From positions 1 to 41,948 of the IMG/VR virus record IMGVR_UViG_3300032320_000899: 41,948 nucleotides of DNA; one strand, 5' to 3'. Source of the stretch: a virus (Duplodnaviria > Caudoviricetes). The notes under the pieces were generated by a model, which saw nothing but the letters and a program-made list of their open reading frames with translations, was not told where the DNA came from and did no database searches. Shown here piece by piece: positions 22,992 to 41,948 of this stretch. Made by a program: the position numbers and the translations under genes. Positions within the stretch are counted from its first letter, which is position 1; the number at the start of each line of letters is the position of its first letter.

Positions 22992-23564
22992 CTAGTTTAC
23001 TTGATGCTCTTTAGAGCCTTTTTTAGTATTACATAAGCCATGGGCTGGTCTTATGTTTTCTAGGGTGTTTGACCCACCCTTAGCTATAGATACTAGATGG
23101 TCTAAGTGTAGCCCATTTTCCCAACCATCTTTGTTTGTACGGCGAGGAGAATTTAAATCAATAGGCTGTAAGCAAATATGGCAATTTAAACCGTAAGTCT
23201 CTAAAACCTGGGCTTCAGTGTATTTTTCATTTTCAACTAAATACATGCGAGCACGGCGCCTGTGTTCTTTTAAGCGTCCATATTCGGGGTTACGTTTGCC
23301 CCAAGAATTTTTAGTATTCCTGTTCTTATCGGGATTGGCTTCAATCCATGTTTTGCGATACTCATCCATTTTCTCTGGGTTAGCCTTACGCCAAGCAATA
23401 TGAAGTTCTTTTTCCCGTGTTTTGTTTTTTTGGTATTGATTTTTTCTATACTCACTTTTAGCTTTTTTACAAGCTTCACACGGTTCTTGATTACGTTTAC
23501 AGTGAACTACATAGCCAGATGCGGTACCGCAATTAATTGGCGTACTGTAAGAACTGGCTGTCAT
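22992..23564 (-). CDS. HNH endonuclease (probable free-standing homing endonuclease)
   Basis: CHIC...LHLDHLVSIAKGGSNTLENIRPAHGLCNTKKG; N-terminal CGT..GY..H.....PCEAC Zn finger. Confidence 0.92.
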   Translation of the reverse strand: MTASSYSTPINCGTASGYVVHCKRNQEPCEACKKAKSEYRKNQYQKNKTREKELHIAWRKANPEKMDEYRKTWIEANPDKNRNTKNSWGKRNPEYGRLKEHRRRARMYLVENEKYTEAQVLETYGLNCHICLQPIDLNSPRRTNKDGWENGLHLDHLVSIAKGGSNTLENIRPAHGLCNTKKGSKEHQVN

Positions 23565-37795: not shown

Positions 37796-37810
37796 AGTAA
37801 GTCCTTAAAG

Positions 37811-37847
37811 ACCTCCCCCCTCCCCGTAAGGATGGGAAGGGGGAAGT
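37811..37847 (-). other. 14-bp intergenic RNA hairpin with an anti-SD loop (AUCCUUACG)
   Basis: ACTTCCCCCTTCCC / GGGAGGGGGGAGGT; two G-U pairs that work only on the minus strand. Confidence 0.7.
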
Positions 37848-38355: not shown

Positions 38356-39948
38356 TTACCTAGAGAAAAATGGTGAAGACGAAACTTCGGCTTCTGGCAT
38401 GGTCATATCTAGTGTTAGACAGCACGCAATGGCTAAAGAATCAGCAAAGTCATCATGTGCATGAGCTTCGTCTGGAGCTTGCGCCGTAAAGTTAGGGCCT
38501 TGGAATTTAGTCTCTAAATCGGTCATTTGCTGATAAAAACGTTTATAGGTACGCAATCTACGGGTTTTAGCGTGTGCTGGAAATCCAATCATACGACGGT
38601 CAATAAGAGCTTTTAAGTGCTTCCAACGTTTTGACTGCTCAGATTGGCTACTGCTTAAAGGAACAACTTCTGCTCTTGGTAAAAGAAGCTTAAGGCGCTG
38701 GGCTACTGCGTCACCTACGCCGTTTGCATCAACTCCGACAATTAACACATTGTAGTTGGCAAGGAAGTTTACAATTTGGAAGTACTGGTCTTCCCAGTCA
38801 TCGCCTTGAATCTCAAGCCAGTTAAGTACGCGATGGTCGTAGTAACCAAACTCATCAGGTCGGTCCCAATCAACCCAGACAACGGTAACTACTGTACTGT
38901 CCATCTTTCGAGCAGGGTCAATACCAACTACTACAGGTGTACGGTGCCAAGCACGCACCACTTCTTGACTGGTATCTCCAAGTTCATCCATAACAGTAGA
39001 TGTAACAAACATACCTTTTTCAAGCATCCATTTGCAGTTGTAAGACATCTGGAACTCATCAGAGTCTTCACCAATGCGAAGCATTTCTTTACGGACGAAC
39101 TTGTCGTATTTAGGATTAACCTTAGATACATCTCGCCAGTCCCATTGAAAATGGTTTTGGCGTTTTCCACGGCTAGTTTGGCGTCTTTTATTTAACTGAA
39201 TAGACCGATAAAAGTTATTCTTAACATTAGTAGGGGTTCCAGTTTTAACCATAGTTCCCGAGTAATATGCAAGCATAGGGCTAATAGACTTTGAAACAAT
39301 AAAGTCATCTGCGCCTTGGCACTCATCAATAACAATAAGGTGAAACGACTTAGATTCAATCTTTGCCCGCGGGTTAGCGGTCATCATCATGAGGCTACTG
39401 CCAGACTTTTTAAGTTTGATTTGGCGTGTAATACCTGGTACTTTTCCTAGAGAATCGTCAATCTCTGGATCACCTAATATTTCTTGGGCTCTTTCAGAAG
39501 TAAGGCGATTTACAGTTCTACCAAATAAAGTTTCTACCTGGCCCTCAACAGGAGCAAACATACCAATCCAGATACCGTCTTTAAACTGCCCAAGTAAGTC
39601 TGGGTACATTTGGGCAAGGCGTGGAAGTAAAACCATAAGTGTGGCTACTGTGTTAGCAATGGTCTCTGATTTTCCAGATTGGCGAGCCGCAAGGGCGGTA
39701 ATTTCTTCGCCGTCATTAATAATTACCGATTCCATAATACGACGCGCTAAAGGAAGTTGATAGGGGTGTAAAGAGTGCCCTACAAGAGCGTCCATAAACT
39801 CAAGCATGTTATCAATAAGTTTATTTACAAACTCTTTAGATAGCTCATCCATATCTTCTTCATCAGAAGAGTCTTCAGTAACTAACCCGTCAAGGAATTC
39901 TTCTTCTTCTGAACCCTCTTCATAAAAGAGGTGTTGAGTTTCGCTCAT
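38356..39948 (-). CDS. terL: Terminase large subunit
   Basis: LHPYQ, AARQSGKS (Walker A), LIVIDECQ (Walker B), TGTP, VGIDPAR and HDDFADS nuclease motifs. Confidence 0.95.
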   Translation of the reverse strand: MSETQHLFYEEGSEEEEFLDGLVTEDSSDEEDMDELSKEFVNKLIDNMLEFMDALVGHSLHPYQLPLARRIMESVIINDGEEITALAARQSGKSETIANTVATLMVLLPRLAQMYPDLLGQFKDGIWIGMFAPVEGQVETLFGRTVNRLTSERAQEILGDPEIDDSLGKVPGITRQIKLKKSGSSLMMMTANPRAKIESKSFHLIVIDECQGADDFIVSKSISPMLAYYSGTMVKTGTPTNVKNNFYRSIQLNKRRQTSRGKRQNHFQWDWRDVSKVNPKYDKFVRKEMLRIGEDSDEFQMSYNCKWMLEKGMFVTSTVMDELGDTSQEVVRAWHRTPVVVGIDPARKMDSTVVTVVWVDWDRPDEFGYYDHRVLNWLEIQGDDWEDQYFQIVNFLANYNVLIVGVDANGVGDAVAQRLKLLLPRAEVVPLSSSQSEQSKRWKHLKALIDRRMIGFPAHAKTRRLRTYKRFYQQMTDLETKFQGPNFTAQAPDEAHAHDDFADSLAIACCLTLDMTMPEAEVSSSPFFSR

Positions 39949-39990
39949 GTATCTTCCAAACTAATAAAACCGATAAATAAAGAATACAGG

Positions 39991-40077
39991 AATGAAAGAG
40001 CTCTAGCGTGTAAGAAAGGAGGAAGAAACACGCTAGAGCCCAGTTGCCACCTTAGGAGAGGTAAAGAAGTGAGGCTT
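39991..40077 (-). ncRNA. Candidate sRNA (or structured terL leader) with two anti-Shine-Dalgarno loops
   Basis: Extended -10 TGcTATAGT upstream; hairpin with loop CUCCUA; 14-bp hairpin with a 16-nt loop UUCUUCCUCCUUUCUU; U-rich tail. Confidence 0.6.
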
Positions 40078-40081
40078 TATT

Positions 40082-40090
40082 ACTATAGCA
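40082..40090 (-). promoter_or_regulatory. Extended -10 promoter TGcTATAGT
   Basis: Overlaps the stop of the upstream ORF; expected start falls at the first hairpin of the candidate sRNA. Confidence 0.55.
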
Positions 40091-40334
40091 TAGAGCGCTT
40101 ATTTATCTCAGATGCCAAAGCATGTATAGCTTCAGCACCTAAAGACAAATCTTGTAAACTAACTACGTCGTTAGGGTTTTTTTGGTATCTGCCCAGTGCT
40201 CGGTTAGTCTCTGAAATAGCCTGCTCTGTCCATAGATATAAGTCTGCGGTAGCTAATTTTGCTACTCTATTGGCTACTTTCTCAGAAAAAGGTTTGTCCC
40301 AGTTTTCTTTTTTAACCCAAAACTTTAGTCCCAT
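40083..40334 (-). CDS. Hypothetical helical protein (terminase small subunit candidate by position only)
   Basis: 83-aa ORF overlapping its upstream neighbour, last ORF before terL. Confidence 0.6.
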   Translation of the reverse strand: MGLKFWVKKENWDKPFSEKVANRVAKLATADLYLWTEQAISETNRALGRYQKNPNDVVSLQDLSLGAEAIHALASEINKRSML

Positions 40335-40588
40335 TCCAATAACTCCTCTAGTGGTACGTCTAGTTCTCTACCCCAAATTGCTGCGGTAAGGGCGTCATCC
40401 TCAGTTTGAGCTTCGCCCCATTTTCCTATAACAAACCCTGGCTTGGTAAACGGTACACGAAAAACTAGGCAACTGCCTCGACGATAAGGCTCTTCAATTT
40501 CGTGAGACCATCCCTTTTCAAAAACTGGAAGAACATTCCTATGAGGGTATTTAATTACTTGTCCGTATAGTGGTCCAATTAAATTCAT
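40325..40588 (-). CDS. Hypothetical protein
   Basis: 87-aa ORF, TAATG-coupled. Confidence 0.7.
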   Translation of the reverse strand: MNLIGPLYGQVIKYPHRNVLPVFEKGWSHEIEEPYRRGSCLVFRVPFTKPGFVIGKWGEAQTEDDALTAAIWGRELDVPLEELLEWD

Positions 40589-41121
40589 TAAAGTTTTCCT
40601 CCAAAAGGGGTATTTCTACTGTTGTACCCAGGTACATAAGTTTTGCGCTGAGTTTTTTCCGCTATTTTAGATAGGCCTTTATATGCAGCACTTTGCCTAG
40701 AGCTAATAGAAGCAGGTCCCATACTATCATCAGGCCAACCAGAAAGAGGGCCACTTTCAATAAAGTCATGTTTAGAGGCAGAATCTCTAAAGTCATCCCA
40801 TAATCTAGGGTTTACATCGTAGTAGTTCCACACCGTTCCGTCTCTAAATTGGACGGTAAGAATAAAGTTTTTTGCGTCATACCCAGCAGTTCTTGTTCTT
40901 GGGCGATCAGGATTTGTTGTAGAAGTTTGTGTTGATTGAGGAGCCCAAACAGTTCCATTTCTAGCTTTACTTGGAGTTTTTACTTCAAGGTCCTCGTAAG
41001 CGCGACGCTCATCTTCATACGTGTTTGGATCATCCCTAATGCCTTCAATAAAGGAATCGTACTTAGATTCGGCTTTAGTAGGGTTTAAAGTCCTTCGTAA
41101 ATCATCTGGGTCTGCAACCAT
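40588..41121 (-). CDS. KTSC-domain protein
   Basis: TAGYDAKNFILTVQFRDGTVWNYYDVNPRLWDDFRDSASKHDFI matches the KTSC pattern GYD....L.V.F..G..Y.Y..V....W..F..A.S. Confidence 0.8.
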   Translation of the reverse strand: MVADPDDLRRTLNPTKAESKYDSFIEGIRDDPNTYEDERRAYEDLEVKTPSKARNGTVWAPQSTQTSTTNPDRPRTRTAGYDAKNFILTVQFRDGTVWNYYDVNPRLWDDFRDSASKHDFIESGPLSGWPDDSMGPASISSRQSAAYKGLSKIAEKTQRKTYVPGYNSRNTPFGGKL

Positions 41122-41769: not shown

Positions 41770-41787
41770 TTTAGACCTTTCCTAAGG

Positions 41788-41948
41788 TTATTGTTCGTCT
41801 ACGTGCTGCTCAAACTTGCCTTCAAGTTTGCTCAGTTTTAGTTCTATACGGTTAACCGCATCTCTCATGCTTGAGCCGCCATTTGGTCGGTACTGCTCTT
41901 CTAGTTTTTCCAAACGAGCAGTAATTTTGTTAAAAAATTTAAATCCAC
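41788..41948 (-). CDS. 3' part of an actinophage-type lysis-cassette protein (DUF2746-like), truncated by the window edge
   Basis: ...GFKFFNKITARLEKLEEQYRPNGGSSMRDAVNRIELKLSKLEGKFEQHVDEQ*; NGGSS(M/L)RD motif; not in ORF track. Confidence 0.7.
   Translation of the reverse strand, partial: GFKFFNKITARLEKLEEQYRPNGGSSMRDAVNRIELKLSKLEGKFEQHVDEQ

What the first reader, a model, noticed from the sequence alone, without database searches (positions are those of the whole stretch)
39991..40090. Candidate phage sRNA displaying anti-Shine-Dalgarno loops that mimic the 16S rRNA 3' end
Seen: the ~130-nt gap before terL contains, on the sense strand, an extended -10 (TGcTATAGT, 40082-40090), a first hairpin with loop CUCCUA (ACCU/AGGU, possibly within a larger GCC..CAC/GUGGC stem), and a 14-bp stem (40028-40041 with 39998-40011). 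One G-U pair in that stem works only on this strand. It closes a 16-nt pure-pyrimidine loop UUCUUCCUCCUUUCUU and is followed by UUUCAUU. Known: CCUCCUUUCU is the 3'-terminal anti-SD of actinobacterial 16S rRNA, and C-rich loops of S. aureus RNAIII/RsaE seed pairing on SD sequences. Inference: this is a trans-acting RNA that occludes SD sites, either for host translation shut-off sparing leaderless mRNAs or for timing of phage genes (whose RBSs here are mostly AAGGAG/TAGGAG). It could also attenuate read-through into terL, which has only a weak SD.
Basis: partly seen in the sequence, partly recalled or inferred. Interest (0 to 1): 0.82.

Follow-up and report, generated by a model that had tools for sequence, protein, structure and literature searches.

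The report
Phage small RNA with anti-SD loops
A freshwater actinobacterial phage family keeps, just before its DNA-packaging gene, a conserved 70-85 nt non-coding unit (promoter motif, exposed C/U loop, terminator) whose loops are complementary to ribosome-binding sites and in one branch copy the 16S rRNA 3' tail, so it likely makes a small RNA that would block translation of selected mRNAs, though neither the transcript nor its targets are shown.

Summary
Observation confirmed at the stated coordinates. The element is conserved: 72 of 77 related phage loci carry it. It has a -10 hexamer 6-7 nt before a 5'-GCC (41 of 41 distinct copies), a GCC/GGC-closed C/U loop with an unpaired UCUCC core (37 of 40), a covarying terminator stem, then a second -10 for terL. 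No Rfam match, one copy per genome, no host homologue found.

The 16S-tail mimic in loop 2 is real but limited to one branch: 8-11 nt identity in 6 of 19 copies, a 13-nt match in loop 1 of another, and none in 193 other long-loop hairpins.

Best reading (0.55): a chaperone-independent sRNA that pairs with Shine-Dalgarno regions, working like 6C/B11 or LhrC without belonging to either family. In this phage the best site is the RBS of a holin-like membrane gene 1.7 kb upstream (13 of 14 pairs), but it holds in only 5 of 8 local copies; no universal target emerged. Global shut-off sparing leaderless mRNA and terL attenuation are disfavoured. Expression is untested.

The parts
40082..40090 (-). 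P1, extended -10 motif TGCTATAGT; predicted start of the RNA at or next to G40075
   Evidence: TAnnnT 6-7 nt before the GCC in 41 of 41 distinct copies, 32 with the TG extension; promoter-like hit
39991..40075 (-). Predicted small RNA, about 85 nt (70-80 nt in relatives with a short loop 2)
   Evidence: Fold z -6.75; present in 72 of 77 loci; single copy per record; ends inferred, not mapped
40046..40075 (-). Hairpin 1: GCC/GGC closing stem with a C/U-rich loop; inner ACCU/AGGU mini-stem in this phage
   Evidence: GCC/GGC paired in 96.5% of cells, no double change, in alignment A2; ACC/GGU variant seen in L036 and L073
40053..40060 (-). Conserved seed CUCUCCUA (core UCUCC), complementary to UAGGAGAG
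   Evidence: UCUCC in 37 of 40 distinct copies; predicted unpaired probability 0.83 or more in 38 of 40; invariant in 19 of 19 branch-A rows, 7 of which were retrieved with this motif
39998..40041 (-). Hairpin 2: 14-bp stem, predicted intrinsic terminator
   Evidence: 8 of 10 pairs show changes on both sides, 98.3% of cells paired; relatives have tetraloops plus U-runs
40013..40022 (-). CCUCCUUUCU in loop 2, identical to the 16S rRNA 3' tail (anti-SD); limited to one branch
39991..39997 (-). U-rich tail UUUCAUU
   Evidence: Sequence; stronger U-runs in relatives
39981..39986 (-). P2, predicted -10 hexamer TATTCT for terL, 32 nt before the ATG
   Evidence: TAnnnT at 32-33 nt in 9 of 11 branch-A loci and at 6-10 nt in 26 of 27 other loci
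38356..39948 (-). Terminase large subunit (530 aa), about 54% identical to that of Streptomyces phage BRock
40083..40334 (-). Conserved 83-aa gene of unknown function; its stop overlaps P1
   Evidence: no PHROG, Pfam or Atlas assignment
41775..41788 (-). Candidate target: RBS ACCUUAGGAAAGGU of the 110-aa membrane gene, 13 of 14 pairs with hairpin 1 (ACCUCUCCUAAGGU)
   Evidence: Top of 272 candidate starts in the window; 15 of 15 pairs in L003; fails in L012, L286, L295
41437..41769 (-). 110-aa hydrophobic, holin-like protein (accessory gene)
   Evidence: Atlas feature hit to an r1t-holin cluster at 0.89 (42% of members; lead only); no Pfam hit; the PHROG hit is labelled nuclease

Best explanation
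The element is a conserved stand-alone non-coding unit that likely makes a 70-85 nt small RNA, predicted to repress translation in trans by pairing its exposed UCUCC-containing loop (plus, in this branch, a second loop copying the 16S 3' tail) with the Shine-Dalgarno region of selected mRNAs. Shown: the conserved promoter motif, loop, terminator stem and downstream second promoter motif, single copy, no reading frame. Inferred: host RNA polymerase starts at the GCC; the 5' stem and the terminator protect the RNA; the loop seeds on (U/A)GGAGA and extends where flanks allow, so strong extended RBSs are dampened rather than all translation shut off. In this phage the best predicted target is the RBS of its own holin-like 110-aa gene, which would give lysis-timing control; the target set likely differs between lineages and may include host mRNAs.
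For: Present in 72 of 77 loci with an intact upstream gene. Cleanly absent as a module in L011, L017, L018 (gap 30 nt), L015 and L020. -10 at a fixed 6-7 nt spacing in 41 of 41 copies, also where it lies well past the upstream stop. It stays in place when a gene is inserted before terL (L007, L009). Core UCUCC in 37 of 40 copies and predicted unpaired while the stems and loop 2 diverge. AGGAGA, the complement of the branch-A core, is commoner upstream of starts than AGGAGG: 31 vs 14 among 1,095 genes of Nanopelagicaceae genome G012, 44 vs 8 among 502 phage ORFs. Loop 1 of the window and of L069 pairs with more host RBSs than all 25 shuffles. 16S-tail identity of 8-13 nt in 7 of 19 branch-A copies at two positions. 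13-18 nt pairing to the 110-aa gene RBS in W, L003, L005, L006, L008 despite differing RBS sequences. No conserved reverse-strand ORF behind either SD-like complement. Precedent: 6C/B11 and LhrC repress through C/CU-rich loops without needing Hfq (PMC6486639 abstract; PMC10470900 passages; PMC4132741 abstract).
Against: No universal target. Among 135 gene families in ten records none has a median duplex below -12.2 kcal/mol. The conserved holin-like family reaches -15 in 3 of 30 loci, all one clade. The 110-aa family fails in L012, L286, L295 and in three distant homologues. Four branch-B loops do no better than shuffles on host RBSs (16-25 of 25 shuffles as good); L006 and L016 are not significant (7 and 6 of 25). 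The branch-B complement GGAGAGGAAGAG is in 35 of 151 host-family genomes, near the reversed-pattern control. Hairpin 1 is weak and its stem shows no double change in A2. Duplex energies come from my own simplified nearest-neighbour script and ignore target structure. The host is inferred, not known.
Confidence: 0.55

Rival explanations
1. The RNA is made but acts as a protein decoy. Its single-stranded C/U loop and 16S-tail mimic would titrate a host factor that binds pyrimidine tracts or the 16S 3' end (ribosomal protein S1, Rho, a hibernation or maturation factor, or a MazF-type RNase cutting UCCUU-like sites; these protein preferences are recalled, not from a call), or would bind the neighbouring phage KTSC-domain protein.
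For: Tract length and CU-repeat number vary (13-22 nt) around an invariant pentamer, as expected for a protein site. Branch-B loops are not tuned to host RBSs. No universal mRNA target. L069, L286 and L302 extend the 16S identity into (A)UCACC. A KTSC-domain gene lies about 0.5 kb upstream.
Against: The shared mimic is the SD-pairing part (CCUCC), and extended RBS complementarity exists in some lineages. A 15-20 nt tract is short for Rho loading and a cleavable RNA is a poor decoy for a nuclease (general knowledge).
Confidence: 0.2
2. The element acts in cis. It is an insulator or attenuator: an intrinsic terminator with a C/U tract that ends transcripts from the upstream genes or gates read-through from P1 into terL; any short RNA is a by-product.
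For: It is always between the 83-aa gene and terL: 41 of 42 pattern hits are beside terL or the 83-aa gene and the other is a chance match. Hairpin 2 has terminator anatomy. In L011, L017 and L018 the P1-like -10 directly precedes terL, so P1 can serve as a terL promoter.
Against: terL has its own downstream -10 in 35 of 38 loci at a fixed distance. An inserted gene with its own leaderless -10 separates the element from terL in L007 and L009. A plain terminator needs neither a promoter 6-7 nt before it, nor an invariant unpaired UCUCC, nor a 16S-tail loop. Minimum-energy folds keep the terminator and show no shared antiterminator.
Confidence: 0.17
3. It works in packaging, either as a DNA site (pac or terminase-binding polypyrimidine tract) or as a pRNA-like motor RNA.
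For: Fixed position just before terL.
Against: Absent from close relatives with terL about 85% identical (L011, L015, L017, L018, L020), from 80 of 80 sister-clade loci and from BRock and GiJojo, so it is not needed for packaging in this family. G-U pairs and compensatory changes point to RNA on one strand. Both loops are pyrimidine-only and cannot pair with each other as pRNA loops do (pRNA mechanism recalled). No Rfam hit.
Confidence: 0.08

Closest known systems
6C / B11 sRNA of Actinobacteria (Rfam RF01066)
   Same: Small two-hairpin RNA with C-rich loops that pair with RBSs and repress translation without a chaperone (PMC6486639 abstract; PMC10470900 passages); same host phylum.
   Different: No Rfam match. 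Loops are C/U tracts and a 16S-tail copy, not runs of C. Phage-encoded, single copy beside terL; the second loop is an optional terminator loop. 6C itself was not found in 61 Nanopelagicaceae genomes.
LhrC (Listeria) and RsaE / RNAIII / RoxS C-rich-motif sRNAs
   Same: CU-rich single-stranded sites that block translation; LhrC uses three redundant CU-rich sites without needing Hfq (PMC4132741 abstract). RsaE, RNAIII and RoxS details are recalled.
   Different: Firmicutes chromosomal RNAs; no Rfam match. The window's copy has UCUCCU and CCUCCUUU rather than UCCC (branch B has UCCC).
Phage-encoded regulatory RNAs: PAK_P4as15, sar, PreS, VpdS
   Same: Phage RNAs acting by base pairing; PAK_P4as15 is proposed to delay lysis by repressing the endolysin gene (PMC12197685 passages).
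   Different: PAK_P4as15 is a cis-antisense RNA of about 550 nt; PreS and VpdS need Hfq. The passages read describe none with anti-SD or 16S-mimic loops and none from actinophages.
Candidate structured RNAs upstream of terminase genes in IMG/VR (Fremin et al. 2023, PMC10690425)
   Same: Computational motifs from the same database; about 35 rows list terminase domains within 25 bp downstream.
   Different: Their alignments and position files could not be read, so whether this motif is among them is unresolved; the passages read propose no anti-SD function.
Intrinsic (Rho-independent) terminator
   Same: Hairpin 2 plus U-run, canonical in relatives.
   Different: Explains neither P1, hairpin 1 nor the 16-nt mimic loop.

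Membership tests
6C / B11 (RF01066) | Covariance-model match at the gathering score (47 bits) | tested here: not met
   0 hits in the window at gathering; not among the 2 weak hits up to E 10 in 39800-40300
6C / B11 (RF01066) | Two hairpins each with a run of cytosines in the loop | tested here: not met
   The window's loops have at most two C in a row; most relatives have only one pyrimidine loop
6C / B11 (RF01066) | Represses mRNAs by loop pairing to the RBS | not testable with these tools
   Only predicted duplexes
LhrC / RsaE / RoxS C-rich-motif sRNAs | Rfam family match | tested here: not met
LhrC / RsaE / RoxS C-rich-motif sRNAs | Unpaired UCCC motif as seed | tested here: inconclusive
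   Unpaired UCUCCC in branch B, UCUCCU in branch A and the window
Trans-acting sRNA gene (general class) | Own promoter, own terminator, no reading frame | tested here: met
   As sequence motifs only:
Trans-acting sRNA gene (general class) | Discrete transcript detected | not testable with these tools
   See Tried and rejected
Type I antitoxin / antisense to a holin | Encoded antisense to, or with conserved extended complementarity to, the membrane-toxin mRNA in all members | tested here: not met
   Not overlapping. Pairing at -15 kcal/mol or better in 5 of 8 local copies of the 110-aa family and 3 of 30 of the conserved holin-like family
Intrinsic terminator | G+C-rich stem followed by a U-run | tested here: met
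   the 16-nt loop is outside the scanner's 3-8 nt limit
phi29-type packaging RNA | Mutually complementary loops; required in all members | tested here: not met
   Both loops pyrimidine-only; element missing in 5 close relatives and 80 of 80 sister loci; no Rfam hit

The most novel reading that the evidence does not exclude
Lytic actinophages encode a small RNA that mimics the 16S rRNA 3' tail and competes with the 30S subunit for Shine-Dalgarno sites, retuning which host and phage mRNAs are translated; in this lineage it doubles as a trans-encoded 'RNA antiholin' that delays lysis. The mimic appears at two different positions in the RNA (loop 2 in six copies, loop 1 in L069), suggesting repeated selection for rRNA mimicry.
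Probability: 0.3. Interest if true: 0.85.

Novelty: new variant of a known kind. Interest (0 to 1): 0.62.

Why it matters
Phage sRNAs with defined mechanisms are few and mostly from Hfq-containing hosts or cis-antisense (PMC12197685 passages). This is a compact RNA family, not in Rfam, in an abundant group of freshwater actinophages, with natural loop-2-plus, loop-2-minus and element-minus variants that serve as built-in controls. If it represses by anti-SD pairing, it shows that a lytic phage can regulate translation by copying the ribosome's own mRNA-binding tail, and it offers a minimal chaperone-free sRNA scaffold for Actinobacteria. A trans-acting RNA timer on a holin-like gene would be a new form of lysis control. 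The reporter tests are simple and need no cultured phage.

Tried and rejected
Expression: no RNA holder was listed for window 39300-40900, which says nothing either way; no reads could be laid.

Rfam: 0 hits at gathering, 2 chance hits up to E 10. No blastn match in 50,697 GenBank phage records.

Host homologue: model R1 on 141 Nanopelagicaceae genomes gave 14 genomes with hits of at most 29.5 bits; the six best were plain terminators.

Extra copies: none above 24 bits in 741 kb of phage records; none in BRock, GiJojo or DSL-LC01; 0 of 80 sister-clade loci.

The G-run before the 102-aa gene (about 37810-37830), top hit, is the 3' arm of its own stable hairpin and does not covary with the loop: rejected as target.

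Reverse-strand gene using the loops as RBS: the GTG frame is 106 aa in the window but 2-30 aa or missing in relatives (25 copies examined before the script stopped): rejected.

Universal holin target: rejected (3 of 30). CACAC motifs before lysis genes in L021, L026, L034 and L041 read better as -10 variants (my reading).

Host targets: ranking 1,095 genes of G012 with ten loops gave recurring but unremarkable candidates (by sequence recognition an EF-G, an RsmH-like and a glycine-dehydrogenase-like gene; labels recalled). Conserved TAGGAGAG RBSs in the host family precede a 415-aa protein and a peroxiredoxin-like gene, with 8-nt pairing only.

RNAalifold found no consensus on the loose alignment A1. 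My first structure string was mis-indexed (redone: 74% paired, hairpin-1 columns misaligned in branch B). A terL tree to map gain and loss was not obtained, so 'branch A/B' rests on sequence type and terL identity, not on a tree.

Earlier scan findings: nothing shown.

Literature: eight searches listed no paper on this element or on a phage anti-SD mimic RNA; subscription papers are not covered.

Full report
Context. The window is a 41.9-kb virus record holding the packaging, head and contractile-tail genes of a myovirus, all on the - strand. Its terL is about 54% identical to that of Streptomyces phage BRock and relatives. A WhiB-like hit, 43% GC and one relative binned in a Nanopelagicaceae MAG (L170) point to a freshwater actinobacterial host. 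This is inferred: the other genome hit is binned as Saccharimonadales, so binning is unreliable. WhiB as an actinophage marker is from PMC10202952 (first part of the text read).

Observation. The 86-nt unit folds with z -6.75, driven by the long stem; hairpin 1 alone (z 0.16) and the promoter motif alone are not above chance. The 16S tail of a Nanopelagicaceae MAG reads GGATCACCTCCTTTCTA. The 10-nt identity in loop 2 is the only match of 7 nt or more among 194 long-loop hairpins in ten phage records.

Conservation. A terL scan returned the best 80 of 596 loci (83-100% identity). Of the 77 with the upstream 83-aa gene, 72 carry the element and 5 lack it: L011, L017 and L018 have a 30-nt gap with the -10 directly before terL; L015 and L020 have overlapping genes. 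A sister clade lacks it in 80 of 80 loci, as do BRock and GiJojo. In those Streptomyces phages a short reverse-strand gene fills the slot (annotated as a membrane protein in GiJojo and Alone3). There is one copy per record and no homologue in 141 host-family genomes.

Anatomy. (i) TAnnnT lies 6-7 nt before a GCC in 41 of 41 distinct copies, 32 with TG. The copies were first located without requiring the -10, though one search did require it. (ii) GCC...GGC closes a 13-22 nt tract that is 84-100% pyrimidine, with UCUCC in 37 of 40 copies and predicted unpaired probability of 0.83 or more in 38 of 40. (iii) A terminator-like stem follows, with 8 of 10 pairs changed on both sides and 98% of cells paired in the 19-row branch-A alignment; slid controls reach at most 53%. 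This shows an RNA hairpin, as any terminator would. (iv) A second TAnnnT sits 32-33 nt before the terL ATG in 9 of 11 branch-A loci and 6-10 nt before it in 26 of 27 others; in L007 and L009 it heads an inserted gene 6 nt from its ATG. TAnnnT is a loose motif, so the fixed spacing is the evidence. There is no start codon at the 5' end and no conserved reverse ORF. The simplest reading is a separate short transcription unit.

Which loop matters. Loop 2 is 3-9 nt in all branch-B copies and in many branch-A copies. In the 19 branch-A rows it matches the 16S tail over 10 nt (W, L005), 9 (L016, L302), 11 (L286) and 8 (L295), and over 6 in L296; it is long but degenerate in L003, L010 and L013; L069 carries a 13-nt match in loop 1 instead. 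L286, L295, L296 and L302 were retrieved by a loop-1 pattern, so their loop 2 was not selected for. The mimic is therefore retained across diverged stems but dispensable, and the core of loop 1 is the family trait.

What it could pair with. AGGAGA outnumbers AGGAGG upstream of starts in host genome G012 (31 vs 14 of 1,095 genes) and in phage ORFs (44 vs 8 of 502), so UCUCCU fits the SD actually used. On 350 sampled host RBSs, loop 1 of the window and of L069 beat all 25 shuffles, L006 and L016 did not (7 and 6 of 25 as good), and four branch-B loops were no better than shuffles (16-25 of 25). Loop 2 paired with 10.9% of RBSs against 19.4% for the true 16S tail.

Candidate phage target. In the window the best of 272 candidate starts is the RBS of the 110-aa hydrophobic gene 1.7 kb upstream (13 of 14 pairs). 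It is 15 of 15 in L003 and strong in L005, L006 and L008, but absent in L012, L286 and L295. The protein is holin-like only by a weak Atlas lead. The conserved holin-like family pairs strongly in 3 of 30 loci, and no family among 135 in ten records is a universal target. Host pattern searches were uninformative. Energies are from my own simplified script without target accessibility.

Mechanism. I commit to a trans-acting, chaperone-independent sRNA that occludes the SD region of selected mRNAs (0.55). Architecture, conservation and complementarity are shown; transcription, pairing and repression are inferred. Global shut-off sparing leaderless mRNA is unlikely, because the capsid, sheath and tube genes use AAGGAG and only 1 of 40 window genes looks leaderless. 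Rivals are a protein decoy (0.20), a cis insulator or attenuator (0.17) and a packaging role (0.08).

Comparison. It would work like 6C/B11 (PMC6486639, abstract and outline; PMC10470900, passages) and LhrC (PMC4132741, abstract and outline) but fails their membership tests. A review of phage sRNAs (PMC12197685, passages) names a cis-antisense lysis delayer, PAK_P4as15, and nothing like this in the passages read. PMC10986025 (passages) reports highly transcribed non-coding regions in a Rhodococcus phage without this anatomy. Eight literature searches listed no description of the element. The catalogue of Fremin et al. (PMC10690425; passages and supplement files 3 and 5 searched) lists candidate RNAs upstream of terminases, but its alignments and position files were unreadable and file 4 was not searched, so prior computational listing cannot be excluded.

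Verdict. Novelty: new variant of a known kind. Interest 0.62; the boldest reading (16S-mimic competitor and RNA antiholin) has probability 0.3 and interest 0.85.

Noticed in passing
window 37810-37845 (-): A strong C-run/G-run hairpin without a U-run sits just before the RBS of the 102-aa gene in nearly all relatives, with variable loop and stem; it may be a processing or stability element for the portal-capsid mRNA.
   Followed up: partly
window 40588-41121 (-): 177-aa KTSC-domain protein (Pfam PF13619), present in 35 of 35 loci examined; KTSC is recalled as a possible nucleic-acid-binding domain, so it is a candidate partner of the RNA.
   Followed up: no
window 22992-23564 (-): 190-aa protein with a weak WhiB-like N-terminus fused to an HNH/endonuclease VII domain.
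   Followed up: no
L081-L083, about 2560-2850: In Streptomyces phages BRock, GiJojo and Alone3 the pre-terL slot holds a short reverse-strand gene (annotated membrane protein in GiJojo and Alone3, unlisted in BRock). In GiJojo its RBS reads CTCTCC on the terL strand about 90 nt before terL, hinting that the element could derive from a reversed RBS (speculation).
   Followed up: partly
L007 2314-2990; L009 from 2319: A roughly 224-aa gene, resembling a glycosyltransferase by eye (label recalled, not scanned), is inserted between the element and terL with its own leaderless -10.
   Followed up: partly
L042, L053, L060, L064, L068 and others, 15-30 nt upstream of the element: Branch-B copies often have TTGTCGAC or TTATCGAC just upstream of the P1 -10, too close for a -35: a possible regulator site.
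   Followed up: no
window 39949-39975 (-): The branch-A terL leader is conserved (CG.TTT...AGTTTGGA..A.ACATG), also in phages lacking the element, and has no clear SD.
   Followed up: no
G001, G002, G003, G004, G009, G010 (for example G002:C1:74132): A roughly 180-aa gene with a signal-peptide-like start keeps the RBS ACTGAGAGGAG in branch-B records, an 8-12 nt complement of their loop 1 (about -11 to -13 kcal/mol): a weak candidate target.
   Followed up: partly
G006:C1:22037 (-) and G007:C1:10798 (-): Top-ranked RBSs in two other branch-A records are an 80-aa unknown gene (15 nt, -20.4) and a WhiB-like gene (10 perfect pairs, -14.6), not the holin-like genes.
   Followed up: partly
L170, L171: Phage terL contigs lie inside MAGs titled Nanopelagicaceae and Saccharimonadales; at least one is probably mis-binned.
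   Followed up: no
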